Shown here: positions 1 to 50,258 of the stretch, piece by piece
Layout of the letters: each line of letters opens with the position of its first letter
How positions within the stretch are numbered: the first letter of the stretch is position 1
Sequence record: PZ445429.1
Reading direction: 5' to 3' (one strand)
Source of the DNA: a phage
DNA length: 64,000 bases
Position numbers and translations under genes: made by a program
The notes under the pieces: generated by a model
Databases searched by the model: none
What the model was told of the DNA's origin: nothing
Seen by the model: only the letters and a program-made list of their open reading frames with translations

Positions 1-122
1 TTAGAATTACGAGACCCCGCAATACTTCCTTTCGCAGCTCTACCTTTAGCTACTCTACGAGTAAAATCACCTGTATCTGGATTATACTCGAAAAGTTCTT
101 TGAGCTTATCTTGTGTTATCAT
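1..122 (-). CDS. HNH homing-endonuclease-like protein, N-terminal fragment (runs off window edge)
   Basis: Minus-strand ATG at 120-122 directly after the helicase stop; translation MITQDKLKELFEYNPDTGDFTRRVAKGRAAKGSIAG resembles N-termini of phage HNH/NUMOD-type endonucleases; truncated at position 1. Confidence 0.4.
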   Translation of the reverse strand, partial: MITQDKLKELFEYNPDTGDFTRRVAKGRAAKGSIAGSRNS

Positions 123-24913: not shown

Positions 24914-25432
24914 GTGAAACCTCAACTAACAAAAGAATTTCTAGAGAAATATCTAGAACTCAGAGAAGATACTCTCTATTGGAAGCCAAGAGAGACTAAT
25001 AAAGGTGGATTTAATACTAGATTTGCTGGAAAACCTGTAGGAGCCGTCAATGGAAATGGCTACCTATGCTTCCGACTTAACGTGGAAGGTTATAGATGGG
25101 AATTAAGAAATCATGTAGTAATCTTCTGTCTCTATTATGGATATTACCCAACTAAGACAGTAGACCATAAAGATACAAATAAACTTAATAACCATCCTTT
25201 AAATCTACGAGAATCAACCGATGCTGGTAATGCCCAAAATAGGGGAGCCGGTAAAAACAATACCCATGGACATAAAAACCTAGAGCCTCTTAGTTCAGGA
25301 AACTGGAGGGTTAGGATAACACACAACGGTACTGTTTACAGATCTTCCGCAATGCCTCTAGAAAAAGCTCTAGAACATAGAGATATTAAACTTAAAGAAT
25401 TTCATGGCGAATACGCTAATAATGGAGAATAA
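24914..25432 (+). CDS. HNH homing endonuclease (free-standing, between nrdA and nrdB)
   Basis: GTG start after RBS TAAGGAGAT; HNH core DHKDTNKLNNHPLNLRESTDAGNAQN; own promoter at 24861-24889; paralog of 34849-35331. Confidence 0.7.
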   Translation: MKPQLTKEFLEKYLELREDTLYWKPRETNKGGFNTRFAGKPVGAVNGNGYLCFRLNVEGYRWELRNHVVIFCLYYGYYPTKTVDHKDTNKLNNHPLNLRESTDAGNAQNRGAGKNNTHGHKNLEPLSSGNWRVRITHNGTVYRSSAMPLEKALEHRDIKLKEFHGEYANNGE

Positions 25433-34848: not shown

Positions 34849-35331
34849 ATGAAAAGGAAAGAATACCCTACTAAAGAAATACTTGAAAAATATTTTGTAG
34901 CTGATCCTGATAATGGGATACTATATAGGAAAACAAAGAAAGGTTTGAAAGAGTGTTGTGCCAATAATAAGAAATCACATCCAGATGTGGGATTTCAGGG
35001 CGACACCTATCAACTGCATGTCTTATTATTTATTATGTACTATGGATATAGGCCTGAAGAAGTAGATCATAAGGATACTAATCCTAGAAATAATAGGAAA
35101 AATAATCTAAGGGACGCCTCTAGATCGCAAAATAATGCGAATAGAAACCAACAATGCAATAATACTTCTGGGTACAAAGGAGTAAGTTGGGAAGGCTCTT
35201 CCTGGAGATACCAAGTAAGACATGAAGGAAAAAATTACAGTAAAAGAGGGTTTAAAACTGCGGAAGAGGCTTTCGAGGCCTCTAAGATATTAAGAGAATC
35301 CTTACATAAAGAATTTACTAACTTTGGTTAG
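34849..35331 (+). CDS. HNH homing endonuclease
   Basis: 160 aa; HNH core VDHKDTNPRNNRKNNLRDASRSQNNANR; paralog of 24914-25432; ATG 6 nt after promoter -10. Confidence 0.7.
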   Translation: MKRKEYPTKEILEKYFVADPDNGILYRKTKKGLKECCANNKKSHPDVGFQGDTYQLHVLLFIMYYGYRPEEVDHKDTNPRNNRKNNLRDASRSQNNANRNQQCNNTSGYKGVSWEGSSWRYQVRHEGKNYSKRGFKTAEEAFEASKILRESLHKEFTNFG

Positions 35332-41833: not shown

Positions 41834-41911
41834 GGTTCTCAAGCTCATTTGGTATGAGCCGTCGCCTCATAAGCGAAAGGTAGGTAGGTTCGAATCCTCC
41901 GGGAGCCACCA
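41834..41911 (+). tRNA. tRNA with CAT anticodon (Met or Ile2)
   Basis: Acceptor GGTTCTC/GGGAGCC, D-stem GCTC/GAGC, loop CTCATAA, CCA. Confidence 0.65.
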
Positions 41912-41928
41912 ATTAATTAGGAGACTAT

Positions 41929-42114
41929 ATGTCTAGATTCTACGAAATGAAGAAAGCATTAGAAGAATGTCGGTGTAAGGACTGTCATGGTGGTGGTAGG
42001 CAGGATGATGCAGAACCTGGGGATATTTTCTGTAGAGAATGGGAATGTCCTACATGTAAAGGTACTGGTATCAACCCTGAATATGCAATTTGTCTAGACA
42101 TTGAGCGAGGCTAA
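41929..42114 (+). CDS. small zinc-ribbon protein
   Basis: 61 aa; CRCKDCHGG...CPTCKG. Confidence 0.45.
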   Translation: MSRFYEMKKALEECRCKDCHGGGRQDDAEPGDIFCREWECPTCKGTGINPEYAICLDIERG

Positions 42115-42454
42115 GATGGATATTTTTACTACTCCGGCAATAAACCTTTTAGGTGTTGGCTTGTTCCAAGCTACGGTGTATCGTACTGATGATTCTACTG
42201 ATGTGGTAACGTTCATCGTACCTGAGTTCTTCCTAGAAAAGTTCTTTGAAGAGTTTGAGCAGTTCCGTGAAGAACACAATGCTCATTCCGATATGGAAGA
42301 TCTAGCAGCTATGTTCCCTGTGGTTTACGGCTATATCTTTGAAGGTAATGGCCTAGATCTTAATAAATCTGAACTCGTTGAACTTAACTGGGGCATCAAT
42401 TTTGAAGTTGGCTCTCCATTTCCTCGATATTTCCAGGGTTTAGAGATTCGATAA
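42101..42454 (+). CDS. hypothetical protein
   Basis: 117-aa ORF; stop 8 nt before a tRNA. Confidence 0.5.
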   Translation: MSEAKMDIFTTPAINLLGVGLFQATVYRTDDSTDVVTFIVPEFFLEKFFEEFEQFREEHNAHSDMEDLAAMFPVVYGYIFEGNGLDLNKSELVELNWGINFEVGSPFPRYFQGLEIR

Positions 42455-42462
42455 GATTACAT

Positions 42463-42539
42463 GGGGGTGTAATCGAATTGGCATAGGTACTGGACTTAAA
42501 ATTCAGGTTTTGTGGGTTCGAATCCCACCACCCCTACCA
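42463..42539 (+). tRNA. tRNA with TAA anticodon (Leu-type) but class-I short variable arm
   Basis: Acceptor GGGGGTG/CACCCCT, T-arm GTGGG-TTCGAAT-CCCAC, loop CTTAAAA, 5-nt variable region, A73, CCA. Confidence 0.6.
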
Positions 42540-42690
42540 AATTAAGGAAATAAAATGAAAGCTAGTAAGAAAGCACTACGTAAATTTATGTACTGTCGTT
42601 TTCATAGCATCAAGACTTCAACTAATGGTACGACTTATGATCGCTATGATCCTAAGTTTGGCTTACATTCTAAATAACTGGAGAAAACAA

Positions 42691-42897
42691 ATGGCTAATC
42701 CTGAAATTACGGCACAGCGCTTTATGCTAAAAGGTATTATTGCTGAAGCAGGCGTGACACAAGAAGTGGAAGATTTCCATAAGCAGTTCCTAAATATTCT
42801 CACTCAAGCCAAAGAGCTAGGAGAGAAAGAACATGGCGCGGCTATTATGGCAATCACATTGGTTGGGCTTGATCTGGCAGAAGAATCAGGAGTTTAA
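42691..42897 (+). CDS. hypothetical small protein
   Basis: ATG 42691 preceded by GGAGAAAAC. Confidence 0.45.
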   Translation: MANPEITAQRFMLKGIIAEAGVTQEVEDFHKQFLNILTQAKELGEKEHGAAIMAITLVGLDLAEESGV

Positions 42898-42927
42898 CTC
42901 CTCCAAGCAGAAATTTTAAAAATGTAC

Positions 42928-42957
42928 TTGCCTTTTGCTTTAAATTTCTGGTATAAT
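42928..42957 (+). promoter_or_regulatory. N25-type early promoter
   Basis: TTGCCT, 18 bp, TATAAT then TATAAATTGATGAAGGAG. Confidence 0.6.
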
Positions 42958-42987
42958 AGTTATATAAATTGATGAAGGAGTTAACGA

Positions 42988-43263
42988 ATGCAAAATCGTG
43001 TTATAGCAACTGGTATTGAAAGTGCAATCTGTAAATCCTGGGAAGGCTGGGAAGGTGAGATTGAATGGCTTTATTTCTACGATGTAGAACTTCTGCCGGA
43101 AGTTAAAGCTAAATGTGTTGAAGCTGGCATGGCTCCAGATGCAAAAGCTGATATTGATATTTCAATGTCTGAACTTAAAGGTCGTGTAATTACTGTTAGT
43201 GATGAGGGCGAAGAAGTTTTCGAACTTCCATTCTCCTTAACTGTCACTCCTAAGTTCGATTAA
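42988..43263 (+). CDS. hypothetical protein
   Basis: 91-aa ORF, promoter plus RBS GAAGGAG. Confidence 0.5.
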   Translation: MQNRVIATGIESAICKSWEGWEGEIEWLYFYDVELLPEVKAKCVEAGMAPDAKADIDISMSELKGRVITVSDEGEEVFELPFSLTVTPKFD

Positions 43264-43299
43264 CTAATACAGCACTTAGCAAGTTCTTTAAAATTTGAC

Positions 43300-43328
43300 T
43301 TGCTCAGTGCCTTAAAACTTGATATAAT
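43300..43328 (+). promoter_or_regulatory. promoter driving tRNA-Tyr/Glu/Trp/Phe cluster
   Basis: TTGCTC, 17 bp, TATAAT; ~120-nt leader before first tRNA. Confidence 0.6.
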
Positions 43329-43453
43329 AGTTATCTAATTTGGAAAACATATCTGAATGAGAAGTAACTAAGCGAGTTGCTTTTAGGGGTAAAGTCAGGA
43401 TTTCCTGAAATATTCCACTTTGAGTTTAACCGACTTACTTTTCATTCAAATAT

Positions 43454-43534
43454 GGGGGATTGGCTCAGTGGCGACGGCGCCTGGCTGTAGACCGGGTATA
43501 TCACGCGGAGGTTCGAGTCCTCCATCCCCCACCA
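43454..43534 (+). tRNA. tRNA-Tyr (GTA)
   Basis: Acceptor GGGGGAT/ATCCCCC, T-arm GGAGG-TTCGAGT-CCTCC, loop CTGTAGA, 10-nt variable arm, CCA. Confidence 0.7.
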
Positions 43535-43542
43535 AAATTAAT

Positions 43543-43617
43543 GCACCTATCGTCTAATGGTTAGGACATCAGGATTTCAATCTGAGAATCGGAGTTCAAT
43601 TCTCCGTGGGTGTGCCA
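43543..43617 (+). tRNA. tRNA-Glu (TTC)
   Basis: Acceptor GCACCTA/TGGGTGT, D-stem GTCT/GGAC, loop ATTTCAA, T-loop TTCAATT, CCA. Confidence 0.7.
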
Positions 43618-43626
43618 ATTAATAAT

Positions 43627-43697
43627 TGGGGTACGCATAGGTTGCTAGTGGGCCTCCAAAACCCATGAAAAGGTTTCGAATACCTTTACCCCTGCCA
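43627..43697 (+). tRNA. tRNA-Trp-like (CCA), irregular D-arm
   Basis: T-arm AAGGT-TTCGAAT-ACCTT, 3' TACCCCT-G-CCA, loop CTCCAAA; short, U1-U72 mismatch; may be degenerate. Confidence 0.45.
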
Positions 43698-43703
43698 ATA
43701 TTT

Positions 43704-43778
43704 GCACCTTTAGCTGAGATGGATTAGCGCTTGCCTGAAGAGCTTGAGAGGTTGGATCGTTACCAACGGGGTGCACCA
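43704..43778 (+). tRNA. tRNA-Phe-like (GAA)
   Basis: Acceptor GCACCTT/GGGGTGC, D-stem GCTG/TAGC, loop CTGAAGA; two U-U mismatches in anticodon stem, non-canonical T-loop ATCGTTA. Confidence 0.5.
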
Positions 43779-43795
43779 ATTTGAAGGAGATGCTG

Positions 43796-44068
43796 ATGCA
43801 TCCTGAAAACTTCTTTATTTACTGTGCGGATAAGTCATTAAAACGCAGAATTAATAAAGTCTATCATTATCGTGCCAGTCAACAGCCTTATGTTTATGCT
43901 TTTGACGGAGATCACATCCCACTAGAACAATTGGCATGTGATTACATGGTATTGAAGAACTTTGACGAGACAAAGATCTCAAGCGTTCATAATCGACAGA
44001 ACCCGTTAACGTGGAAATATAAGAAGAAAAAGAAAGGCATCATATTTCTGAAAAATGTAGTTGCTTAA
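43796..44068 (+). CDS. hypothetical protein
   Basis: ATG 43796 six nt after AGGAG. Confidence 0.45.
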   Translation: MHPENFFIYCADKSLKRRINKVYHYRASQQPYVYAFDGDHIPLEQLACDYMVLKNFDETKISSVHNRQNPLTWKYKKKKKGIIFLKNVVA

Positions 44069-44089
44069 CCACTTAAAGTTCTGTATAAT
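44061..44089 (+). promoter_or_regulatory. N25-type early promoter
   Basis: TTGCTT (inside preceding ORF 3' end), 17 bp, TATAAT. Confidence 0.6.
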
Positions 44090-44118
44090 TATTACATAAG
44101 TTGAACTGGAGAAGCAAC

Positions 44119-44343
44119 ATGACAGAACAAGAATTGAAAGAACGTAAGCTGGTAATGCTTCGCTTACTAAACATTTTCTCTGGTATGGATGGTGGTATTG
44201 ACTTCATTCAACTACGCACTTTTGTAGAAGAAGCAGAAGGCGAGGCTATCACTAGGATTCTTAAACATATGGGTTTGTTACTAGATGCTGCTAATGTGGC
44301 TACTCAATATAAACTCAAAGATTTACCAGAGCGTGTTAAATGA
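44119..44343 (+). CDS. hypothetical protein
   Basis: ATG 44119 after RBS GGAGAAG. Confidence 0.5.
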   Translation: MTEQELKERKLVMLRLLNIFSGMDGGIDFIQLRTFVEEAEGEAITRILKHMGLLLDAANVATQYKLKDLPERVK

Positions 44344-44531
44344 AAATGTTAGTTAAATTTAAGTGTTGTGGTTCTGAACATATTTTCACTCGTTATAGAG
44401 AGTTTAAGATGTGTGAGTGTGGTAAGTCAGGCTATGATGCTGGAGATGGCTTTTATGCTAGATCTTTAGGACATTCTAAAGATCTAGAGTTTACTAATCT
44501 CGAAAAGCAAGATAAATCGACCGTTGGCTGA
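44340..44531 (+). CDS. small Cys-rich zinc-ribbon-like protein
   Basis: 63 aa, KCCGSEH...CECG; 3' end overlaps tRNA start by 14 nt. Confidence 0.45.
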   Translation: MKMLVKFKCCGSEHIFTRYREFKMCECGKSGYDAGDGFYARSLGHSKDLEFTNLEKQDKSTVG

Positions 44532-44593
44532 ATGGCTTAGGCGGAGGCCTGCAAAACCTCCTTATGTGAGTTCGAATCTCATGCGGTCGTCCA
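44518..44593 (+). tRNA. tRNA-Cys (GCA)
   Basis: Acceptor CGACCGT/GCGGTCG, T-loop TTCGAAT, loop CTGCAAA, CCA. Confidence 0.65.
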
Positions 44594-44599
44594 AATTTA

Positions 44600-44685
44600 G
44601 GGCCGTTGGCTGAATGGTTTAAGCGCCGGACTGTTAATCCGTATCCGCAAGGATAAAGTAGGTTCGACTCCTACACGGCCCGCCA
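44600..44685 (+). tRNA. tRNA-Asn-type (GTT) with unusually long variable region
   Basis: Acceptor GGGCCGT/ACGGCCC, anticodon arm CCGGA-CTGTTAA-TCCGT, 15-nt variable region with GCAA-loop hairpin, G73, CCA. Confidence 0.6.
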
Positions 44686-44712
44686 ATTTCATTAACAACT
44701 GAGGAAATAGAT

Positions 44713-44898
44713 ATGACAACTCGTGCAATTGCTCGACTAGAAGCTGATCGTGATAATCTGATTAATAATATTAAGGTTCGTGGTAATATTATTAAGGCTC
44801 TGAAAGCTGAACTTCTTGAAGAACTTCAAGGTCAAGTAGAGCGTCGTGAAGCTCTAAAAGAGGTTGAGGAAGCTATCGAAAAACTCAAGGCTGAATAA
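44713..44898 (+). CDS. hypothetical coiled-coil protein
   Basis: 61-aa ORF with RBS GAGGAAATAG. Confidence 0.45.
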   Translation: MTTRAIARLEADRDNLINNIKVRGNIIKALKAELLEELQGQVERREALKEVEEAIEKLKAE

Positions 44899-44901
44899 AT
44901 T

Positions 44902-45483
44902 ATGCACGGAATATCCTTACCCATTCCAGGGTTTGAGGAGTACTTAGTAAGTTTGGATGGGTTAGTATTTAGTATCAAATCAAACAAAATACTAACCCCA
45001 ATAACCAGTAATTACGGATACTTATCTATACGTCTCCATAAAAATGGTCAACAGAGAAATACCGGTGTACATAGGATTTTAGCATGTGCATTTAAGAAAT
45101 TACCAAGTCTAGACTCTGAACTAGAAGTTGACCATATTAACACAGACATTACTTATTGGGGTCTTAATAACTTACAAGTGCTCACAAAAGAGCAGCATCT
45201 AGAAAAGACTTTAAAAGACAAAGGATTTAGTAAACTAAACCATGATAATTGTTGTAAGGATTGTGGTAAAGCTATTTCTTTAAAAGCTGAAAAATGTCAG
45301 GAGTGCTCTTCACATAAACCAAAAGATATCTCTATAACTAAAGAAATAATCGAGGTTACAGTAAGAGAGCTAGGCTGGTCAGGTGCAGGGAGAAAGTTAA
45401 GTTATTCAGATAATGGGTTGCGTAAAAGATACACTTCTTTAGGAGGCAATCCTAAAGAACTTAAAAAGTTAAAGGTACTATAG
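44902..45483 (+). CDS. HNH homing endonuclease inside the tRNA cluster
   Basis: 193 aa; HNH core EVDHINTD...NNLQVLTKEQH plus zinc ribbon CCKDCG...CQEC; stop overlaps tRNA start. Confidence 0.7.
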   Translation: MHGISLPIPGFEEYLVSLDGLVFSIKSNKILTPITSNYGYLSIRLHKNGQQRNTGVHRILACAFKKLPSLDSELEVDHINTDITYWGLNNLQVLTKEQHLEKTLKDKGFSKLNHDNCCKDCGKAISLKAEKCQECSSHKPKDISITKEIIEVTVRELGWSGAGRKLSYSDNGLRKRYTSLGGNPKELKKLKVL

Positions 45484-45548
45484 TCTAACGGTTAGGATAC
45501 TCCCCTGTCACGGGAGAGGTAGGGTTTCGATTACCCTTAGTACCGCCA
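45474..45548 (+). tRNA. tRNA-Asp (GTC)
   Basis: Acceptor GGTACTA/TAGTACC, anticodon arm CTCCC-CTGTCAC-GGGAG, T-arm AGGGT-TTCGATT-ACCCT, CCA. Confidence 0.8.
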
Positions 45549-45554
45549 AATTAT

Positions 45555-45631
45555 ACATCCATAGCTCAATTGGTTAGAGCTACCGCCTCTTAAGCGGTAG
45601 GTTCTAGGTTCAAGTCCTAGTGGGTGTACCA
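45555..45631 (+). tRNA. tRNA-Lys (CTT)
   Basis: Acceptor ACATCCA/TGGGTGT, D-stem GCTC/GAGC, anticodon arm ACCGC-CTCTTAA-GCGGT, CCA. Confidence 0.8.
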
Positions 45632-45844
45632 AACATCAGAGCAGCGTGATGTACTGCAAAGACCCAAAGTCCGGGGTGGACTTCTTGATTCAAAGGAGCA
45701 GGCATTAATTATCATTCTAGCGTGGTGGAGAGGGGACACCAGCTTGCCGAGGGTAGAAGCTCGTTCGATTCGAGTGAAAGAATGGTTCTCGTAAATCCGC
45801 ACAAGTGATAGTAGGTTCAAGTCCTACCTAGATTGACTCATTAT
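45632..45844 (+). ncRNA. ORF-free tRNA-like region (candidate stable RNA or degenerate tRNA genes)
   Basis: 213 nt between two tRNAs; two T-arm-like hairpins (GCTCG-TTCGATT-CGAGT near 45757; GTAGG-TTCAAGT-CCTAC at 45811-45827) without a matching 5' acceptor strand. Confidence 0.3.
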
Positions 45845-45915
45845 GCGTTCGTAGTTAAAAGGTATAATTTTTGGTTGCCAACCAGAAGTTGAGGGTTCGA
45901 TTCCCTCCGACCGCA
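45845..45915 (+). tRNA. tRNA-Gly (GCC), no encoded CCA
   Basis: Acceptor GCGTTCG/CGACCGC (one mismatch), loop TTGCCAA, T-arm GAGGG-TTCGATT-CCCTC; 3' end ...A-CAA. Confidence 0.55.
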
Positions 45916-46173
45916 CAAAATCTTTGTAGGTCGCGTCACTTATAGTGGGACTACAGGGTAAACAAGGCGATGAGTTTCCGGCCGGTTCTAGTCGCTGAAA
46001 ATCCTCCCGACCAGGTAGGTGTAGGTAAACGAAAGTTTACTTATTGAGTAGGTTCCGATAGATCGGCGGGTCTATTCTGGCGTTTAAGAGAAGTCTCGCA
46101 AACTTCTTTGTCAGCCGTGGGGCTTGAACCCTCCAGGTGGCCTACGCAATAAGTAAATTTATTAAAAATTCAT
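45916..46173 (+). ncRNA. ORF-free structured region (candidate small RNA)
   Basis: ~255 nt, GC-richer than surroundings, hairpins such as GTAAAC-GAAA-GTTTAC; no ORF of 60 aa or more. Confidence 0.25.
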
Positions 46174-46202
46174 TTGCTATTTTGCTTAATTCTCTGTATA
46201 AT
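46174..46202 (+). promoter_or_regulatory. N25-type early promoter
   Basis: AAAAATTCATTTGCTAT...TATAAT. Confidence 0.7.
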
Positions 46203-46234
46203 ATATCTTATAAAGTGTTGAGAAGGAAAGCAAA

Positions 46235-46432
46235 ATGAAAAAAGTTATGTTACTATCTGTATTCTTACTCACTGGTTGCTTTAAATTTGATTCAACCATT
46301 AACAAGGAGTATGAATTTGCAAAAAATTTCTGTGGTGGAGAGAGTAAAATACAAAACTTCAGTATACACTCTACAATTCCTAGTACCATTTACTGCATAG
46401 ATGGACGGAATATTAATATTCCACCACAATAA
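46235..46432 (+). CDS. small lipoprotein
   Basis: 65 aa; lipobox LLTGC. Confidence 0.55.
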   Translation: MKKVMLLSVFLLTGCFKFDSTINKEYEFAKNFCGGESKIQNFSIHSTIPSTIYCIDGRNINIPPQ

Positions 46433-46441
46433 AAGAATATT

Positions 46442-46518
46442 CTCCGATTAGCTCAATTGGCTAGAGTACACCGTTTGGGGCGGTGGGGTTGAAGGTTCGA
46501 GTCCTTCATTGGAGACCA
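46442..46518 (+). tRNA. tRNA-Pro (TGG)
   Basis: Acceptor CTCCGAT/ATTGGAG, anticodon arm CACCG-TTTGGGG-CGGTG, T-arm GAAGG-TTCGAGT-CCTTC, CCA. Confidence 0.8.
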
Positions 46519-46524
46519 AACAAT

Positions 46525-46602
46525 TGCGGGTTAGATCTTTGGTAGAGATCGCTAGTCTCATAAGCTAGAAAGAGGTAGGTTCGATTCCTACACCCGCTTC
46601 CA
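46525..46602 (+). tRNA. tRNA with CAT anticodon (Met or Ile2), U1-U72 mismatch
   Basis: Acceptor TGCGGGT/ACCCGCT, D-stem GATC/GATC, anticodon arm CTAGT-CTCATAA-GCTAG, CCA. Confidence 0.65.
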
Positions 46603-46623
46603 ATTTAATAGAAGGATTTCGAA

Positions 46624-46788
46624 ATGAAATTATTTCGTTTAAAAGTAAGTGATCTACGTTCTAGCAAAGATCGTAAGAAGTATCCACTAGCCCATTACGG
46701 TAAAGATGAAAACGAAGTGATGGCGGAATTTGGTATTAATCATCCTTACTTAAAAGTCTACTCTATTAAAGAAGTCTATGCTAATTAA
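46624..46788 (+). CDS. small hypothetical protein (54 aa)
   Basis: Below track cutoff; RBS AAGGA; overlaps next gene start. Confidence 0.35.
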   Translation: MKLFRLKVSDLRSSKDRKKYPLAHYGKDENEVMAEFGINHPYLKVYSIKEVYAN

Positions 46789-47251
46789 TAAAGTTTTAGC
46801 TGCCTTAAACCTTCCTGATAACTTCATTATAGATGATAAGCTCATAAGAGCTTATATGAGCAAATATAACGAAATTTCGGGTAAAGAAGGTAAGTTAAAA
46901 ACTTCAGAGTTTAGATTCTGTTATCGAATGGCAGCCTTAAATCTCTTAAAGTATAAAAGGGAGCATAAAATACCTATAACGGAAGGTTTTGTATATGTAA
47001 TTGGTAATCCAGCATGGCCAGGCATGTATAAAATAGGTATGACTATAGATGTGAATGAGAGGTTAGCAAGTTATCAAACTTATTCACCTAATAGAGACTA
47101 CAAGCTATACCATTTCAGATTTTCGTCGGATAAAAGACGTACAGAGAAAGAATTACATAATCTTCTTAAAGATTATAGAGTATCTGGAGAATGGTTTGAA
47201 GTACCTGTACTAGATGCTTTTAAATTATTAGTAGAAAAATTGGATTGCTAG
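46778..47251 (+). CDS. T5orf172/GIY-YIG-like domain protein (putative endonuclease)
   Basis: 157 aa; GFVYVIGNPAWPGMYKIGMTIDVNERL; stop overlaps tRNA. Confidence 0.65.
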   Translation: MLINKVLAALNLPDNFIIDDKLIRAYMSKYNEISGKEGKLKTSEFRFCYRMAALNLLKYKREHKIPITEGFVYVIGNPAWPGMYKIGMTIDVNERLASYQTYSPNRDYKLYHFRFSSDKRRTEKELHNLLKDYRVSGEWFEVPVLDAFKLLVEKLDC

Positions 47252-47319
47252 CTCAACTGGATAAGAGTAGCGGACCTTTAATCCGTCAGTTCTGGGTTCG
47301 AATCCCAGGCAATCCACCA
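47242..47319 (+). tRNA. tRNA-Lys (TTT)
   Basis: Acceptor GGATTGC/GCAATCC, loop CCTTTAA, T-arm CTGGG-TTCGAAT-CCCAG, CCA; 5' end overlaps upstream stop codon. Confidence 0.7.
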
Positions 47320-47323
47320 AATT

Positions 47324-47397
47324 GCTCGGTTAGTTTAATGGGAGAACCCCGTCTTTACACGGCGGTTGCGATAGTTCGATTCTATCACCGAGTACCA
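47324..47397 (+). tRNA. tRNA-Val (TAC)
   Basis: Acceptor GCTCGGT/ACCGAGT, anticodon arm CCGTC-TTTACAC-GGCGG, CCA. Confidence 0.8.
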
Positions 47398-47422
47398 ATT
47401 AACTCAAAATAAGGAATTGCAA

Positions 47423-47776
47423 ATGCAATTATCAAGCAAGGTTCAAGGCTATTTCGGGCATGTAACAATGGAGTTCGCTATCTCTAAAGGTTGGGACTTC
47501 GAACAAGATCTAGCTGAGTTCTACAAAGATATTGATCTGAACGTACCATACATGGGACTCTCCACTGGTCAAGAGATCACAGAAGGCGATGTGTTCAAGG
47601 CAAGTCAAGGTGAGGTAACACCTAGTTTTGCCAAGTTCTGGTTAGGTATCACACTGAAAGAAGATGCACCAGAGGATGGTGTGGTTATGCAGAGTATGCA
47701 CTCTGGAAGCTCTGATTACCTTTTCGTTAGTGACGTTAAGGAAATACAAGAAATCGCTAAAAATGTACTTGCTTGA
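47423..47776 (+). CDS. hypothetical protein
   Basis: ATG 47423 six nt after AAGGAA. Confidence 0.5.
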   Translation: MQLSSKVQGYFGHVTMEFAISKGWDFEQDLAEFYKDIDLNVPYMGLSTGQEITEGDVFKASQGEVTPSFAKFWLGITLKEDAPEDGVVMQSMHSGSSDYLFVSDVKEIQEIAKNVLA

Positions 47777-47797
47777 TGCTTAATTTCTTGTTATAAT
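47769..47797 (+). promoter_or_regulatory. N25-type promoter driving a noncoding leader and tRNA-Ala cluster
   Basis: TTGCTT, 17 bp, TATAAT then TATAAATTGATGAGGAG. Confidence 0.7.
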
Positions 47798-48037
47798 ATT
47801 TATATAAATTGATGAGGAGAAATCCTCATCAAAGTTCACTAAGGTATTAGCTCGACCCAGGACTGGCTGCCAAAAAGCACGATCCCTACGACTCGGGAGA
47901 AGTTCTAGATTAGTCCACTAGATTCAGCGGCAACTGAATAGTGTATCGGGTTTGTGAAGAGCGGTTATCCTCTACTGGCTAATGTCTGAGGGTAATACGC
48001 ACACCGAGCTAATAGCCTTAGTAAACTTAAAGATTTT
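47798..48037 (+). ncRNA. promoter-driven 240-nt leader upstream of tRNA-Ala (candidate small RNA or processed spacer)
   Basis: N25-type promoter at 47769-47797, then hairpin TGATGAGGA-GAAAT-CCTCATCA and 220 nt without an ORF. Confidence 0.3.
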
Positions 48038-48111
48038 GGGGATATAGTTTAATGGTAGAACATCTGCTTTGCACGCAGAAGACGAGGGTTCAACTCCCTC
48101 TTTCTCCACCA
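48038..48111 (+). tRNA. tRNA-Ala (TGC)
   Basis: Acceptor GGGGATA with G3-U70, anticodon arm TCTGC-TTTGCAC-GCAGA, CCA. Confidence 0.75.
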
Positions 48112-48117
48112 AAATTC

Positions 48118-48193
48118 GGGGTCATAGGTTATTTGGTTAAACTTACTGCCTTGCAAGCAGTGGAACTCAGTTCAATTCTGAGTGACTCCACCA
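48118..48193 (+). tRNA. tRNA-Ala-like (TGC), second copy with different body
   Basis: Acceptor GGGGTCA/TGACTCC with G3-U70, anticodon arm ACTGC-CTTGCAA-GCAGT, CCA. Confidence 0.6.
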
Positions 48194-48200
48194 AACAAAT

Positions 48201-48281
48201 GGGGATGTGGCGAAATTGGCAGACGCGCTAGATTTAGGTTCTAGTCTTCGGGTGTGGGTTCGAGTCCCTCCATCCCTACCA
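48201..48281 (+). tRNA. tRNA-Leu (TAG), type II
   Basis: Acceptor GGGGATG/CATCCCT, D-arm TGGCGAAATTGGCAGACGCG, anticodon arm CTAGA-TTTAGGT-TCTAG, extended variable arm, CCA. Confidence 0.75.
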
Positions 48282-48455
48282 AACATTGGATTAACTCATG
48301 ATGAAAACTCCTATAACTGATATCTGGTTAGCTGTTAATACATTAACTAAAGAGTATGTGTTTATAGAGTATGGTCAGAGGTATGACCAAAAGATGTATA
48401 ATCTCATACTTCCAGTATCCGCTAATGAAGTTTATGATTTAATCCTGAGATCTAC

Positions 48456-48547
48456 GGAAGAGCAAATCGATAGGTGACGAAAACCGCTTGGAAAGTGGCT
48501 GACTTGTTAAAGCAGGCTTGAGAGTTCGAATCTCTCTTCTTCCGCCA
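48456..48547 (+). tRNA. tRNA-Ser (GGA), type II
   Basis: Acceptor GGAAGAG/TTCTTCC, loop TTGGAAA, ~20-nt variable arm, T-arm GAGAG-TTCGAAT-CTCTC, CCA. Confidence 0.6.
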
Positions 48548-48554
48548 AACAACT

Positions 48555-48644
48555 GGAAGGTAGGACATAGTGGTATGTAACAGGTCTTGAAAACCTGCCC
48601 GCTGTAGCGATATGGTGATGGTTCGACTCCATTACCTTCCTCCA
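48555..48644 (+). tRNA. tRNA-Ser (TGA), type II
   Basis: Acceptor GGAAGGT/ACCTTCC, anticodon arm CAGGT-CTTGAAA-ACCTG, long variable arm with CGC/GCG stem, CCA. Confidence 0.75.
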
Positions 48645-48660
48645 ACTAATAAGGAAAAAT

Positions 48661-48996
48661 ATGAGTAGTTATACTAAAATGTATATTGCAGTACTAGATG
48701 AAGCACCCGATTATATGGTACCAACTCTAGTTGCTCACTCTGTTTTAAACGCTCATATTAAGTTTCAGGATGACCCTAGGTATGGGGATTGGCTTGATAA
48801 TTCTTTTAAGAAAGTAATTCTTAGGGTTAATAAAAAAGAATTTAAAAAGATCATATCTACCCTAGAGTGTTACGTAGGTTTTGAGCGCACTATCTGTAAT
48901 GCAGAACCTAGCTGTTTAGTAGTTATGCCTATGAGTTCTGTTGATATGCCAAATGTTTTAAAATTTGCTAGACTTTGGAAACCTAAAGATGTTTAG
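48661..48996 (+). CDS. hypothetical protein
   Basis: 111-aa ORF with RBS AAGGAAAAAT. Confidence 0.5.
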   Translation: MSSYTKMYIAVLDEAPDYMVPTLVAHSVLNAHIKFQDDPRYGDWLDNSFKKVILRVNKKEFKKIISTLECYVGFERTICNAEPSCLVVMPMSSVDMPNVLKFARLWKPKDV

Positions 48997-49384
48997 CAAC
49001 TAGTATTCTTGAAGTATGCCGGAATCGGTAGACGGGGCTTCCTAAAGGGCGTAAGGGGAACATCCACTCCTCATAAGATACCCGAAAACGAGGCTGAGAT
49101 AAATGGTCTATCTCATGAAGGTTCAAGTCCTTCTGCTTCTTGATATTCAATGGCTCAAAGTGTAACGGTGCTATTTGATGTTCTTAGTAAGACTTTCCCG
49201 ACATGCGTTCGGGAGTAAGCTGCTAAGGCTAGAGTAGAAGAGTTTCGGAGAGCCGCCACAATTGAGTATTACTAGAGAGCATTCGCAAGAAAGAATCAGG
49301 AGAAAGACCTGTGCGCAGAATGACTAACTTTGGTACCTTAGACGGCCAAATGGAGGACTGATCATCCCCTAATAGTATTCAATT
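48997..49384 (+). ncRNA. ORF-free tRNA-like region
   Basis: ~390 nt; tRNA D-arm-like GAATCGGTAGACG at 49022-49034 and T-arm GAAGG-TTCAAGT-CCTTC at 49117-49133 but no canonical cloverleaf. Confidence 0.3.
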
Positions 49385-49461
49385 GTGGCTATATCATAAT
49401 TGGTTAATGATCCTGATTGTGAATCAGGCCTATGTGGATTCGAATTCCACTAGCCACCCCA
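49385..49461 (+). tRNA. tRNA-His (GTG)
   Basis: Acceptor GTGGCTA/TAGCCAC, anticodon arm CCTGA-TTGTGAA-TCAGG, C73, CCA. Confidence 0.8.
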
Positions 49462-49467
49462 AATATT

Positions 49468-49542
49468 GCGTCCTTATTTCAACGGAAAGAATGTAAAGCT
49501 ACGAACTTTACGATCGGGGTTCGATTCCCTGAGGATGCACCA
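49468..49542 (+). tRNA. tRNA-Arg (ACG)
   Basis: Acceptor GCGTCCT/AGGATGC, anticodon arm TAAAG-CTACGAA-CTTTA, CCA. Confidence 0.75.
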
Positions 49543-49566
49543 ATTAACTTAAACAGGAAATAAAAT

Positions 49567-49767
49567 ATGGCTGATTTCTGCAAAGAATGCTCTATTGATA
49601 TGTGGGGAAGAGATACTGGTGATCTTTCTGGTCTGATTACAGAAGCCGAAGTTAAAGAAGGCTATGGTGCCGTTGTAATCTGTGAAGGTTGTGGCATTAT
49701 CCGTGTTGATCATAATGGTAAACGTCTAGAAGAGCCTGATCCAATCGCCACGGTTTCTGTAGAATAA
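49567..49767 (+). CDS. small Cys-rich protein
   Basis: 66 aa; CKEC...CEGCG. Confidence 0.45.
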   Translation: MADFCKECSIDMWGRDTGDLSGLITEAEVKEGYGAVVICEGCGIIRVDHNGKRLEEPDPIATVSVE

Positions 49768-49775
49768 AAAATTAT

Positions 49776-49851
49776 TGGAGTGTAGCTCAACTGGCAGAGC
49801 GACGGTTTCTGACACCGTAGGTTTCTAGTTCGATCCTAGACATTCCAGCCA
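49776..49851 (+). tRNA. tRNA-Gln (CTG)
   Basis: Acceptor TGGAGTG/CATTCCA (U1-A72), anticodon arm ACGGT-TTCTGAC-ACCGT, G73, CCA. Confidence 0.75.
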
Positions 49852-49857
49852 AACAAT

Positions 49858-49935
49858 TGGGGATTAGCTTAGCTTGGCCTAAAGCTTCGGCCTTTGAAGT
49901 CGAGATCATTGGTTCAAATCCAATATCCCCTGCCA
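49858..49935 (+). tRNA. tRNA-Gln (TTG)
   Basis: Acceptor TGGGGAT/ATCCCCT (U1-U72), anticodon arm TCGGC-CTTTGAA-GTCGA, G73, CCA. Confidence 0.7.
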
Positions 49936-49943
49936 AACAATAA

Positions 49944-50019
49944 GCGGTTAAGCACACGGGTTGTGCCGCAGGCCTTCCAAGCCCCGCTGAGTAGGGTTCG
50001 ATTCCCTCTAGCCGCTCCA
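49944..50019 (+). tRNA. tRNA-Gly-like (TCC), weak anticodon stem
   Basis: Acceptor GCGGTTA/TAGCCGC, loop CTTCCAA, T-loop TTCGATT, U73, CCA; only 3 bp in anticodon stem. Confidence 0.5.
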
Positions 50020-50036
50020 ACTTTAAGGAAACATTT

Positions 50037-50258
50037 ATGCACGTTTTTGAGTTTCGTGATAAAAGTAACAATAAACGAGTTATTGTTATTGGAGAAACAT
50101 ACCTAGCATACGAACAAACTGACGGCTCTGTTATCTTGAATGATGAGAAAGCAAATTTTAGCTTTTATCCAGAAGAACCTTATGAAGAGTTTCGTACTAA
50201 GTTTCTTTTACCAGACTGGCTAGCAGTAGCCGAGCAACTAGAATCCGAAGATGGCTGA
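50037..50258 (+). CDS. hypothetical protein
   Basis: 73-aa ORF with RBS AAGGAAAC. Confidence 0.45.
   Translation: MHVFEFRDKSNNKRVIVIGETYLAYEQTDGSVILNDEKANFSFYPEEPYEEFRTKFLLPDWLAVAEQLESEDG

What the first reader, a model, noticed from the sequence alone, without database searches (positions are those of the whole stretch)
44902..47319. Endonuclease genes abut or overlap tRNA genes
The HNH gene 44902-45483 ends 10 nt inside tRNA-Asp, and the T5orf172/GIY-YIG-like gene 46778-47251 ends 10 nt inside tRNA-Lys(TTT). Two further HNH paralogs sit at the nrdA/nrdB junction (24914-25432) and at 34849-35331, and a fragment lies at the window start (1-122). This pattern fits free-standing homing endonucleases targeting conserved tRNA and nrd sequences, and could explain the tRNA fragments nearby.
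Basis: partly seen in the sequence, partly recalled or inferred. Interest (0 to 1): 0.45.

Follow-up and report, generated by a model that had tools for sequence, protein, structure and literature searches.

The report
Homing endonuclease–tRNA cassettes in T5-like phage
Two selfish nuclease genes in the tRNA cluster of a T5-like phage each travel together with their own version of the neighbouring tRNA gene; this kind of element has been known in phages T5 and T4 for about twenty years, so the finding is real but ordinary.

Summary
ORF 44902-45483 (NUMOD4 + HNH, 193 aa) ends 10 nt inside tRNA-Asp. ORF 46778-47251 (T5orf172/GIY-YIG-like, 157 aa) ends 10 nt inside tRNA-Lys(UUU). Both overlaps are 10 nt because both ORFs stop at the TAG formed by tRNA positions U8-A9-G10.

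The window is a T5-like phage (Demerecviridae, Epseptimavirus). Both genes behave like free-standing homing endonuclease genes:
- They occur in about 10-15% of some 550 related phage records.
- They are 99-100% identical where present, while flanks are mostly 80-95%.
- Precise empty alleles exist in T5, Seafire, S113, bastian and Eps7.
- Catalytic residues are intact.
- Frameshifted copies exist in Eps7 and bux.

Each nuclease gene comes with a different allele of the downstream tRNA: 64-77% identical to the tRNA in empty genomes, against 99-100% among occupied genomes. The mobile unit is therefore nuclease plus tRNA, and it replaces the resident tRNA.

The HNH protein is a paralog of T5 hegC/hegD (the F-Tfl family). 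The T5orf172 protein is a paralog of T5.069.

An expression brake through RNase P cutting off the borrowed stop codon was already proposed for T4 SegB and T5 F-Tfl. Cleavage targets are inferred, not shown. No link to tRNA fragments was found.

Verdict: a new member of a known kind.

The parts
44713..44898 (+). Small conserved ORF (DUF7337, 61 aa). It is the left flank of the HNH cassette. In empty alleles it is followed after 9-10 nt by tRNA-Asp.
   Evidence: Pfam DUF7337 at 5.5e-30. Empty-allele layout in Seafire, bastian and T5. Homology with bastian runs to the end of this ORF.
44902..45483 (+). Free-standing HNH homing endonuclease gene (193 aa). Architecture: NUMOD4, HNH, Cys4 zinc ribbon, C-terminal helix-turn-helix. 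The start codon lies 3 nt after the upstream stop. The stop is the TAG at positions 8-10 of tRNA-Asp.
   Evidence: I-HmuI (1u3e) at E=2e-4. Invariant D77-H78, N90, H99 and four Cys. 43% and 38% identical to T5 hegD and hegC. Present in 54 of 546 related records, 48 of them at >=99%.
45474..45548 (+). tRNA-Asp(GUC), 'type B' allele, linked to the HNH gene. It replaces the 'type A' tRNA-Asp of HNH-minus phages. Only the anticodon arm is shared.
   Evidence: Rfam tRNA 63.1 bits. 100% identical in HNH+ phages against 66-68% in HNH-minus phages. The same pairing with a 10-nt overlap occurs in a 63%-identical metagenomic relative, L014.
46624..46788 (+). Small conserved ORF (54 aa). It is the left flank of the T5orf172 cassette. 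Its last two codons differ between occupied and empty alleles, and it overlaps the nuclease start by 11 nt.
   Evidence: In S113, T5 and Seafire this ORF abuts tRNA-Lys(UUU) or ends within 2 nt of it.
46778..47251 (+). Free-standing T5orf172 (GIY-YIG-like) endonuclease gene (157 aa). It has an N-terminal three-helix domain and a C-terminal nuclease domain. The stop is the TAG at positions 8-10 of tRNA-Lys(UUU).
47242..47319 (+). tRNA-Lys(UUU) allele strictly linked to the T5orf172 gene. Its acceptor, D and anticodon stems differ from the alleles of empty genomes. It has C instead of U at position 33.
   Evidence: Rfam 59.9 bits. 99-100% identical in T5orf172+ phages against 64-77% in minus phages. 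85 records match this allele at >=90% identity and 85 also carry the ORF 3' end; equal counts, not a record-by-record check.
24914..25432 (+). HNH_3 endonuclease gene between nrdA and nrdB. It belongs to a different subfamily (phrog_99).
   Evidence: Present in 32 of 440 related records; most of the sampled remainder have an empty junction and a few hold another endonuclease gene.
34849..35331 (+). HNH_3 endonuclease gene (phrog_99), 38 nt upstream of a tRNA with anticodon TCA.
   Evidence: Present in 60 of 353 related records.
1..122 (-). First 40 codons of a gene that runs off the window. Relatives annotate it as a homing endonuclease, next to the D10 helicase.
   Evidence: Translation. Annotation of rutana, falkor and T5-like chee130_1 under the match.

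Best explanation
The window comes from a T5-like phage (Epseptimavirus). ORFs 44902-45483 and 46778-47251 are free-standing homing endonuclease genes, one HNH and one T5orf172/GIY-YIG-like.

Each forms a two-gene mobile cassette with the tRNA gene it runs into. The HNH gene travels with a 'type B' tRNA-Asp. The T5orf172 gene travels with its own tRNA-Lys(UUU) allele.

The inferred mechanism is as follows. During mixed infection with a relative that lacks the cassette, the enzyme nicks or cuts the relative's DNA in or next to the resident tRNA gene. Repair copies the nuclease gene and its linked, presumably uncuttable, tRNA allele from the donor. The recipient's tRNA gene is replaced and the tRNA repertoire stays complete.

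Neither ORF has a stop codon of its own. Each uses the TAG formed by the conserved tRNA nucleotides U8-A9-G10. RNase P cleavage at the tRNA 5' end would therefore remove the last three codons and the stop from the nuclease mRNA, which should keep expression low. This brake was proposed earlier for T4 SegB and T5 F-Tfl.

Shown here: gene identity, intact motifs, sporadic and hyper-conserved distribution, precise empty alleles, linkage between nuclease and tRNA allele, and decayed copies. Inferred: the cleavage site, the immunity of the linked tRNA allele, and the RNase P effect.
For: Identity of the phage: best matches are Epseptimavirus genomes.

Nuclease families:
- HNH: NUMOD4 and HNH_3, phrog_59, I-HmuI at E=2e-4.
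- HNH invariants D77-H78, N90, H99 and Cys4 across 19 homologs, including T5 hegC and hegD. Identity is 43% to hegD and 38% to hegC. hegC is 95% identical to bux_117, which its record annotates as 'TflI'.
- T5orf172: Pfam hits; invariant G70, Y73, R95, E138.

Mobility signature:
- The HNH gene is in 54 of 546 related records, 48 at >=99%.
- The T5orf172 gene is in 65 records, 56 at >=99%.
- Flanks are mostly 80-95% identical.
- The mismatch map shows the cassettes as near-identical islands in mosaic flanks.

Empty alleles with exact junctions are found in T5, Seafire, bastian, Eps7 and S113.

Cassette structure:
- The tRNA-Asp allele is 100% identical in four HNH+ phages and 66-68% in four HNH-minus phages.
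- The tRNA-Lys(UUU) allele is 99-100% in five T5orf172+ phages and 64-77% in three minus phages.
- 85 records match this tRNA-Lys allele at >=90% identity and 85 carry the ORF 3' end (equal counts).

Deep linkage:
- An HNH homolog at 63% aa identity overlaps tRNA-Asp by 10 nt (L014).
- T5orf172 homologs at 51-55% aa identity overlap or abut tRNA-Lys(UUU) (L022, L019), as does an uncompared T5orf172-domain gene in L014.
- Other paralogs sit the same way upstream of other tRNAs. T5 hegC sits before tRNA-Ser, hegD before a pseudo-tRNA-Gln and T5.069 before tRNA-Asn. Ace_0071 sits before tRNA-Glu, and L015 before tRNA-Gly.

Decay: there is a +1 insertion in Eps7 and a 10-nt deletion in bux.

The stop codon is tRNA U8-A9-G10. 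No plus-strand terminator-like site lies between either ORF and its tRNA; the single plus-strand site (45503-45524) lies inside tRNA-Asp.

Literature: F-TflI, II and IV are site-specific endonucleases encoded in the T5 tRNA region. The stop-codon and tRNA-processing idea appears in PMC2330249. HEGs are named as the main source of differences among T5-like genomes in PMC10644984. T5orf172 is treated as a GIY-YIG subfamily of HEGs in PMC10448857.
Against: - No cleavage site, strand specificity or homing frequency can be obtained in silico. The target could lie outside the tRNA gene.
- The HNH_3 Pfam hit is below its gathering score (18.5 against 24.8 bits).
- The type B tRNA-Asp also occurs without the HNH gene in about 17 records, an estimate from count differences. 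Kenya-K42 is a clean example with no remnant. Linkage is therefore not absolute, and type B may simply be a natural allele beside which the gene inserted.
- Divergent tRNA alleles (58-79% identity) occur at many other tRNAs in the cluster that have no adjacent nuclease in this window. Allele replacement is thus not specific to these two sites.
- Tight packing and ORF-tRNA overlap also occur for non-nuclease ORFs.
- Foldseek support for the GIY-YIG fold is weak (best SLX1 hit E=0.17).
- Two family members (L017, L018) do not overlap a tRNA.
Confidence: 0.8

Rival explanations
1. The nucleases are mobile selfish genes, but their position against tRNA genes is incidental packing in a very compact tRNA operon. 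They cut somewhere else, for example in the small flanking ORFs or spacers. The linked tRNA allele merely hitch-hikes in the co-conversion tract.
For: - Non-nuclease ORFs also read into tRNAs: 44340-44531 into tRNA-Cys and 48298-48477 into tRNA-Ser.
- Many tRNAs in the cluster show divergent alleles without an adjacent nuclease.
- Two HNH family members lie 44 and 95 nt from the next tRNA.
- Type B tRNA-Asp exists without the HNH gene in Kenya-K42.
Against: - Each nuclease lineage keeps the same tRNA isoacceptor as its downstream neighbour over large divergence. The T5orf172 lineage stays with tRNA-Lys(UUU) at 51-55% aa identity, and the HNH lineage with tRNA-Asp at 63%.
- The segment that differs between occupied and empty alleles is exactly the nuclease plus the tRNA.
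- T4 SegB cuts inside a tRNA gene (PMC2330249).
Confidence: 0.12
2. The proteins are retained because they serve the phage. They could act as weapons in inter-phage competition (marker exclusion of co-infecting relatives), or as the nickase that makes the site-specific nicks typical of T5-like genomes. In this view they are not purely selfish elements.
For: - I-HmuI-like HNH enzymes are nickases, and I-HmuI is the closest solved relative.
- T5-like genomes carry specific nicks (annotation; PMC10644984).
- Exclusion of the competitor's markers is the phenotype described for SegB.
Against: - T5, which has the nicks, lacks both genes.
- Only about 10-15% of relatives carry them.
- Frameshifted copies persist in viable phages.
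- Competition through marker exclusion is the same mechanism as homing, not an alternative to it.
Confidence: 0.06
3. The nucleases act on RNA. Each cuts the host tRNA isoacceptor that matches its neighbour, and the adjacent phage tRNA is the resistant replacement. This would be a host-shutoff or addiction-type pair.
For: - Each nuclease lineage pairs persistently with one tRNA isoacceptor.
- The linked tRNAs differ structurally from the alleles of empty phages.
- tRNA-Lys(UUU) is a known battleground with host nucleases (PMC12409363).
Against: - Both domains belong to DNA endonuclease families.
- The T5 paralogs F-TflI, II and IV are described as site-specific endonucleases and cited as homing endonucleases; Akulenko 2004 itself could not be read.
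- The presence/absence polymorphism with hyper-conserved sequence is the signature of DNA-level mobility.
- The proteins carry DNA-binding modules: NUMOD4, and a predicted helix-turn-helix-type domain.
Confidence: 0.03
4. The window copies are inactive relics, or DNA-binding regulators derived from endonucleases. They are fixed in this lineage and no longer mobile.
For: - Decayed copies of the T5orf172 gene exist in Eps7 and bux.
- HNH_3 scores below the Pfam threshold.
- Domesticated HEG-derived DNA-binding domains are known in phage satellites (PMC10448857).
Against: - The window copies are full length with every invariant catalytic residue.
- Identity of 99-100% across phages whose flanks differ by 5-20% indicates recent spread.
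Confidence: 0.05

Closest known systems
Phage T5 F-Tfl HNH endonucleases (hegC = F-TflI by annotation, hegD, hegA; Akulenko et al. 2004)
   Same: - Same phage family and the same tRNA-cluster location.
- Same architecture: NUMOD4-like N-terminus, HNH, Cys4 ribbon and the C-terminal SDNGLRKRY helix-turn-helix. Identity is 33-43%.
- hegC and hegD also read into the downstream tRNA, by 14 and 23 nt.
   Different: - A different paralog at a different site. T5 is empty at the tRNA-Asp site.
- The window enzyme has not been characterised biochemically.
- It is paired with a replacement tRNA-Asp allele, a point not described in the papers read here.
Phage T4 SegB (GIY-YIG homing endonuclease in the T4 tRNA cluster; PMC2330249)
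   Same: - A free-standing nuclease gene inside a phage tRNA cluster.
- It cuts a relative's tRNA gene and drives preferential inheritance of the tRNA region.
- Its ORF ends at the 5' end of a tRNA, so tRNA processing separates the last codon from the stop codon. This was proposed as an expression brake.
   Different: - A different phage family and a canonical GIY-YIG protein rather than the T5orf172 subfamily.
- No detectable sequence relationship was tested here.
- Homing is demonstrated for SegB and only inferred here.
T5.069 (T5p067) and Ace_0071: T5orf172-domain ORFs upstream of tRNA-Asn and tRNA-Glu
   Same: - 47-50% identical to the window protein over its whole length.
- The same N-terminal helical domain plus T5orf172 domain.
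- Each reads into the downstream tRNA, by 24 and 15 nt.
   Different: - Paired with other tRNA isoacceptors.
- Annotated only as hypothetical proteins, with no functional data.
T5orf172 homing endonuclease genes of ICP1 and other phages (PMC10448857)
   Same: - The same nuclease domain, treated there as a GIY-YIG subfamily.
- They sit at boundaries of genetic exchange between related phages. T5-like phages are named among the lineages whose T5orf172 sequences form a clade.
   Different: About 87% of those proteins carry CapR, DUF723 or DUF4397 zinc-finger DNA-binding domains. The window protein instead has a cysteine-poor three-helix N-terminal domain.
T4 MobE and the nrdA-nrdB endonuclease genes of T5-like phages (AKFV33 ORF96; PMC3326045)
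   Same: An HNH gene inserted between nrdA and nrdB, sporadic among relatives.
   Different: This concerns only the secondary gene at 24914-25432. That gene belongs to a different HNH subfamily from the tRNA-linked one.
I-HmuI (SPO1 intron-encoded HNH nickase, PDB 1u3e)
   Same: Closest solved structure by sequence, aligned over the NUMOD4-like sheet and the HNH motif.
   Different: - I-HmuI is intron-encoded and the window gene is free-standing.
- The last metal ligand is His (H-N-H) in the window protein and Asn in I-HmuI.
- The C-terminal domains differ.

Membership tests
HNH (His-Me finger) endonucleases, I-HmuI/HNH_3 group | beta-beta-alpha-metal motif with the catalytic His, the structural Asn and a His/Asn metal ligand | tested here: met
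   D77-H78, N90 and H99 are invariant in 19 homologs including T5 hegC and hegD. They align with the I-HmuI motif. The Pfam HNH_3 hit is only 18.5 bits, below the 24.8 cut-off. PHROGs phrog_59 'HNH endonuclease' scores 6.4e-22.
HNH (His-Me finger) endonucleases, I-HmuI/HNH_3 group | Site-specific DNA nicking or cleavage | not testable with these tools
   Needs purified protein and substrates. Only the paralogs F-TflI, II and IV are reported as active (cited).
T5 F-Tfl family of tRNA-cluster endonucleases | Full-length homology to hegC/hegD/hegA with the shared zinc ribbon and C-terminal helix-turn-helix | tested here: met
   blastp gives 43% to hegD (E 5e-41), 38% to hegC and 33% to hegA. Conserved C118, C121, C132, C135 and the SDNGLRKRY motif.
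T5 F-Tfl family of tRNA-cluster endonucleases | Location inside the tRNA gene cluster, immediately upstream of a tRNA | tested here: met
   The same holds in L013, L014 and L015.
GIY-YIG superfamily, T5orf172/MUG113 subfamily | Profile match above the curated threshold | tested here: met
   MUG113 scores 67.8 bits (cut-off 22.3). T5orf172 scores 55.9 bits (cut-off 20).
GIY-YIG superfamily, T5orf172/MUG113 subfamily | Catalytic Tyr of the GIY motif, the conserved Arg and the metal-binding Glu | tested here: met
   G70, Y73, K85, G87, R95 and E138 are invariant in 16 homologs. The second Tyr (Y84) is not invariant.
GIY-YIG superfamily, T5orf172/MUG113 subfamily | GIY-YIG alpha/beta fold | tested here: met
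GIY-YIG superfamily, T5orf172/MUG113 subfamily | CapR, DUF723 or DUF4397 zinc-finger DNA-binding domain (typical of T5orf172 HEGs, not strictly defining) | tested here: not met
Free-standing homing endonuclease gene (behavioural definition) | Sporadic presence at one locus among close relatives, with precise empty alleles | tested here: met
   54 of 546 records carry the HNH gene, and 65-85 of the related records carry the T5orf172 gene. Empty alleles in T5, Seafire, bastian, Eps7 and S113, with junctions read at base level.
Free-standing homing endonuclease gene (behavioural definition) | Sequence far more conserved than its flanks, indicating recent horizontal spread | tested here: met
   48 of 54 and 56 of 65 copies are >=99% identical. 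Flanks are mostly 80-95%. The mismatch map shows the same pattern.
Free-standing homing endonuclease gene (behavioural definition) | The enzyme cuts the empty allele, the occupied allele is immune, and inheritance in crosses is biased | not testable with these tools
   Only indirect evidence is available: the tRNA next to the gene differs from the empty-allele tRNA in the acceptor, D and T arms.
RNase P-coupled stop-codon removal (proposed for T4 SegB and T5 F-Tfl) | The stop codon of the nuclease ORF lies at or beyond the RNase P cleavage site of the downstream tRNA | tested here: met
   Both stops occupy tRNA positions 8-10.
RNase P-coupled stop-codon removal (proposed for T4 SegB and T5 F-Tfl) | Co-transcription with the tRNA and an actual reduction of expression by processing | not testable with these tools
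   No plus-strand terminator-like site lies between either ORF and its tRNA. The T5 promoter map places such ORFs and tRNAs in common units. No RNA data are available.

The most novel reading that the evidence does not exclude
The nuclease-tRNA pair may be a cassette whose tRNA is functional cargo. Homing would swap the recipient's tRNA for a structurally different allele of the same isoacceptor. In that case homing endonucleases drive the exchange of anti-defence tRNA variants among T5-like phages, and the benefit of the tRNA helps the selfish gene persist.

The evidence does not exclude this reading.
- The tRNA-Lys(UUU) alleles that segregate with the T5orf172 gene differ at positions 39-41. 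These are the positions reported to decide cleavage by the PARIS nuclease AriB.
- The linked allele also has an unusual C33.
- Discrete divergent alleles occur at many tRNAs of the cluster.
Probability: 0.15. Interest if true: 0.55.

Novelty: new member of a known kind. Interest (0 to 1): 0.27.

Why it matters
It adds two uncharacterised members to a well-known class: free-standing homing endonucleases in phage tRNA clusters, such as T5 F-Tfl and T4 SegB.

It also gives clean natural plus and minus alleles that would make cleavage-site mapping and homing crosses straightforward.

The more useful by-product is the cassette structure. Each nuclease is tied to a replacement tRNA allele, and tRNA genes across the cluster exist as discrete, highly divergent alleles. 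Phage tRNAs are now known to counter host tRNA-cleaving defences such as PARIS. Endonuclease-driven swapping of tRNA alleles could therefore matter for the host range of therapeutic T5-like phages. That link is speculative here.

Tried and rejected
- **Chance explanation of the equal 10-nt overlaps.** Replaced by a structural one: the TAG at tRNA positions 8-10, present in 13 of 28 tRNAs.
- **Overlap as a nuclease-specific feature.** Rejected, because two non-nuclease ORFs also read into tRNAs.
- **Nearby tRNA fragments as scars of homing.** A search with all tRNAs of 11 related loci against the tRNA-masked window found no remnants of the replaced alleles. It found only a variant tRNA-Phe and two short T-arm-like matches far from the nucleases.
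- **Strict linkage of type B tRNA-Asp to the HNH gene.** Rejected, because about 17 records (estimated from count differences), including Kenya-K42, have the allele without the gene.
- **KKP_3822 as a natural HNH deletion.** Judged unreliable, because 225 nt of G/T-rich sequence sit in its place and this is probably an assembly artefact.
- **Promoter and terminator scan.** Counts were not above the shuffle expectation and nothing informative came out except a promoter-like site at 46174-46202.
- **Sequence search of the PDB with the T5orf172 protein.** It found nothing, so the fold had to be tested by structure prediction.
- **Akulenko et al. 2004.** The paper could not be read. What it shows is taken from citing papers.
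- **First Python comparison.** It mixed loci because of the file layout and was redone.

Full report
**What is there.** ARAGORN finds 28 tRNA genes in the window. Among them are tRNA-Asp(GTC) at 45474-45548 and tRNA-Lys(TTT) at 47242-47319, and Rfam places both starts at the same bases. ORF 44902-45483 (193 aa) and ORF 46778-47251 (157 aa) each end 10 nt inside these tRNAs.
- Pfam gives NUMOD4 (above threshold) and HNH_3 (18.5 bits, below the 24.8 threshold) for the first ORF.
- Pfam gives MUG113 and T5orf172, both well above threshold, for the second.
- PHROGs files the first under an HNH endonuclease family and the second under a family of unknown function.

**Why both overlaps are 10 nt.** Both ORFs stop at TAG, and in both cases this TAG is tRNA positions 8-10, the conserved U8, A9 and G10. 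Thirteen of the 28 tRNAs in the window have TAG there. An ORF that enters such a tRNA in that frame must end at +10.

Overlap as such is not a nuclease property. ORF 44340-44531 reads 14 nt into tRNA-Cys and ORF 48298-48477 reads 22 nt into tRNA-Ser(GGA). The cluster is simply very compact.

**Where the window comes from.** The region matches 546 phage records, nearly all T5-like phages of Salmonella, Escherichia and Klebsiella. The best matches belong to the genus Epseptimavirus, family Demerecviridae.

**Are the two genes mobile?**
- The HNH gene alone is found in only 54 of those records, 48 of them at 99% identity or more.
- The T5orf172 gene is found in 65 records, 56 at 99% or more.
- The wider region is mostly 80-95% identical.
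- A bin-by-bin mismatch map against eight relatives shows each gene, together with the tRNA it overlaps, as a near-identical island inside mosaic flanks.

**Empty alleles.** Precise empty alleles exist at both sites.
- In T5, Seafire, bastian and Eps7 the small DUF7337 ORF is followed after about 9 nt by tRNA-Asp, with no HNH gene.
- In T5, Seafire and S113 the 54-aa ORF abuts tRNA-Lys(UUU) or ends within 2 nt of it, with no T5orf172 gene.

**The enzymes: HNH.**
- It is 43% identical to T5 hegD, 38% to hegC and 33% to hegA.
- hegC is 95% identical to a bux gene annotated as F-TflI.
- An alignment of 19 homologs shows invariant E75-V76-D77-H78, N90 and H99, four cysteines of a zinc ribbon, and a C-terminal SDNGLRKRY motif. 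All are present in the window protein.
- The closest solved structure by sequence is the nicking homing endonuclease I-HmuI.

**The enzymes: T5orf172.**
- It is 47-50% identical to T5.069 and Ace_0071.
- Its invariant residues G70, Y73, K85, G87, R95 and E138 correspond to the GIY, YIG, Arg and Glu positions of GIY-YIG nucleases.
- Its N-terminal 65 residues form three helices. This differs from the zinc-finger DNA-binding domains reported for most T5orf172 homing endonucleases (PMC10448857).

The tRNA next to each nuclease is not the tRNA found in the empty genomes. The window tRNA-Asp ('type B', GGTACTATAGTCTAACGG...) shares only the anticodon arm with the tRNA-Asp of T5, Seafire, bastian and Eps7 ('type A', GCGATCGGGGCTGGCTTGG...). 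Identity to the window allele is as follows.

| tRNA allele | Phages carrying the nuclease gene | Phages lacking it |
|---|---|---|
| tRNA-Asp | 100% (four HNH+) | 66-68% (four HNH-minus) |
| tRNA-Lys(UUU) | 99-100% (five T5orf172+) | 64-77% (three minus) |

In the whole phage collection, 85 records match this tRNA-Lys allele at 90% identity or more, and 85 records carry the 3' end of the ORF (equal counts, not checked record by record).

For tRNA-Asp, 56 records carry gene plus tRNA. About 17 more (estimated from count differences) have the type B tRNA, or part of it, without the gene. One of them is the Tequintavirus Kenya-K42, which shows no remnant of the gene.

The segment that differs between occupied and empty genomes is therefore 'nuclease + its tRNA' against 'resident tRNA'.
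- The left junctions lie in the last bases before the tRNA (AAATTATGC) and in the last two codons of the 54-aa ORF.
- The right junctions lie just after the tRNA 3' end.

**How old the pairing is.** The pairing predates the recent spread.
- A metagenomic contig (L014) has an HNH homolog (63% identity) overlapping a type B-like tRNA-Asp by 10 nt. On the same contig a T5orf172-domain gene overlaps tRNA-Lys(UUU) by 10 nt.
- T5orf172 homologs of 55% and 51% identity overlap or abut tRNA-Lys(UUU) in two other contigs.
- Other paralogs sit in the same way upstream of other tRNAs:
  - hegC before tRNA-Ser(GGA)
  - hegD before a pseudo-tRNA-Gln
  - T5.069 before tRNA-Asn
  - Ace_0071 before tRNA-Glu
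  - a 44% homolog before tRNA-Gly(UCC)
  - a further HNH_3 gene before tRNA-Met
- Two family members do not overlap a tRNA.
- Homologs that share the tRNA allele also share the last residues, which the acceptor stem encodes: KVL and LDC.

**Signs of decay.** The T5orf172 gene carries a 1-nt insertion in Eps7 and a 10-nt deletion in bux. Both disrupt the N-terminal domain. In Ace a 14-nt duplication fuses it to the upstream ORF. The window copy is intact. Decayed copies alongside freshly spread identical copies are what the life cycle of a selfish endonuclease gene predicts.

**Most likely mechanism.**
- Shown: these are full-length HNH and GIY-YIG-type nuclease genes with the population signature of homing endonuclease genes, each linked to a replacement tRNA allele.
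- Inferred, homing:
  - In mixed infection the enzyme nicks or cuts the resident tRNA locus of a cassette-free relative.
  - Repair from the donor copies the nuclease gene together with its tRNA.
  - The differences in the acceptor, D and T arms protect the donor allele.
- Inferred, expression:
  - Each ORF starts within a few bases of the upstream stop, or overlaps it, which suggests translational coupling.
  - No plus-strand terminator-like site separates either ORF from its tRNA.
  - RNase P cleavage at the tRNA 5' end would remove the last three codons and the stop, leaving a non-stop message.

Exactly this brake was proposed for T4 SegB and for the T5 F-Tfl enzymes (PMC2330249).

**The secondary claims.**
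- The gene at 24914-25432 lies between nrdA and nrdB. It is present in 32 of 440 related records. Most of the sampled remainder have an empty junction and a few hold a different endonuclease gene at the same spot.
- An HNH gene between nrdA and nrdB was already noted in the T5-like phage AKFV33 (PMC3326045).
- The gene at 34849-35331 is present in 60 of 353 records.
- Both belong to another HNH subfamily (phrog_99). They are not close paralogs of the tRNA-linked HNH.
- Bases 1-122 encode the N-terminus of a minus-strand gene annotated as a homing endonuclease in relatives.

**The tRNA-fragment idea.** It was not supported. No remnants of the replaced alleles are present in the window. The unannotated tRNA-like sequences are not next to any of the four endonuclease genes examined here. 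A chimeric pseudo-tRNA does lie directly after an HNH homolog in a metagenomic contig (L013). The idea is therefore not absurd, only not shown here.

**Comparison with what is known.** Homing endonucleases in phage tRNA clusters are established. F-TflI, II and IV of T5 are cited; the original paper could not be read. T4 SegB is described. Homing endonuclease genes are named as the main source of differences among T5-like genomes (PMC10644984). T5orf172 genes are recognised as homing endonucleases that mark recombination boundaries (PMC10448857). Several GenBank records already annotate these very genes as 'homing endonuclease' or 'GIY-YIG nuclease'.

The two genes here are new, uncharacterised members of a known kind. 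The papers available to me do not describe two things: the strict pairing of each nuclease lineage with a replacement allele of one tRNA isoacceptor, and the bimodal allele pattern across the cluster (96-100% or 58-79% identity).

**Most novel reading still open.** tRNA-Lys(UUU) is the target of the PARIS nuclease AriB. The T5 allele escapes through changes at positions 39 and 41 (PMC12409363). The alleles that segregate with or without the T5orf172 gene differ at exactly these positions, and the linked allele has C33 instead of U33. Endonuclease-driven swapping of tRNA alleles could thus redistribute anti-defence tRNAs among T5-like phages. I rate this as possible but unsupported, with probability about 0.15.

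**Verdict.** The feature is a new member of a known kind, of modest interest.

Noticed in passing
window 47242-47319: The tRNA-Lys(UUU) allele linked to the T5orf172 gene has anticodon loop CCUUUAA, with C at position 33 instead of the near-universal U33. It is identical in Eps7, bobsandoy, bux, Ace, bastian and KKP_3822. The divergent relative L014 has a normal U33. Positions 39-41 (U,C,C) differ from the T5 allele (A,C,C) and from the S113 and Seafire alleles. These are the positions reported to decide cleavage by PARIS AriB.
   Followed up: partly
window 41735-51027 (whole tRNA cluster): Against eight relatives, tRNA genes are either 96-100% or only 58-79% identical, with very few intermediate values (only 86-93%). 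This holds for Tyr, Glu, Asn, Asp, Pro, Lys-UUU, Ala, Leu-UAG and Gln. Discrete allele replacement therefore looks general in this cluster and is not limited to the two nuclease sites.
   Followed up: partly
window 43704-43778: A tRNA-Phe that ARAGORN does not call (Rfam 33.4 bits). It folds into a full cloverleaf with a compensated but non-canonical T arm (GGTTGG-ATCGTTA-CCAACG). It is 93% identical to the tRNA-Phe of bux.
   Followed up: yes
window 43625-43700: A tRNA-Trp-like sequence (anticodon loop CTCCAAA, paired acceptor ends) called by neither ARAGORN nor Rfam. It occupies the place of tRNA-Trp in bux and Seafire and is shared with bobsandoy.
   Followed up: no
window 35369-35442: A tRNA with anticodon TCA, called tRNA-SeC by ARAGORN and 'tRNA-Sec' or 'tRNA-OTHER' in relatives. 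It lies 38 nt downstream of the HNH gene 34849-35331 and is a possible opal-reading tRNA.
   Followed up: no
window 49943-50016: A degenerate tRNA-like sequence (28.5 bits to the Rfam tRNA-Sec model, below threshold) just after tRNA-Gln(TTG). Relatives have tRNA-Gly(TCC) at this position.
   Followed up: no
L013 2055-2130: Directly after an HNH homolog (71% identity) lies a chimeric pseudo-tRNA. Its 5' two-thirds match the window-type tRNA-Asp. Its 3' acceptor strand matches the Seafire-type tRNA-Lys(UUU). This suggests recombination within the conserved T-arm sequence.
   Followed up: partly
L011 (Salmonella phage KKP_3822) 2277-2500: About 225 nt of G/T-rich low-complexity sequence sit exactly where the HNH gene should be, between its retained first 13 nt and its last 13 nt. 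This is probably an assembly or sequencing artefact in the deposited genome.
   Followed up: partly
L001 (Eps7), L003 (bux), L005 (Ace), at the position of window 46778-47251: The T5orf172 gene is frameshifted by a +1 T in Eps7 and by a 10-nt deletion in bux. In Ace a 14-nt duplication fuses it to the upstream 54-aa ORF.
   Followed up: yes
L006 (Seafire) 4576-4893, and the same position in several sampled relatives: In several sampled relatives lacking the T5orf172 gene (for example Sw2, Sepoy and 1-23), an insert of similar size occupies this interval. In Seafire, the only one inspected, it is a 105-aa cysteine-rich ORF (several CxxC pairs) between tRNA-Lys(UUU) and tRNA-Val. This is an alternative occupant of the same neighbourhood, and its function is unknown.
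   Followed up: no
window 44340-44531 and 48298-48477: Two small non-nuclease ORFs also lack their own stop before the next tRNA. They read 14 nt into tRNA-Cys and 22 nt into tRNA-Ser(GGA).
   Followed up: yes
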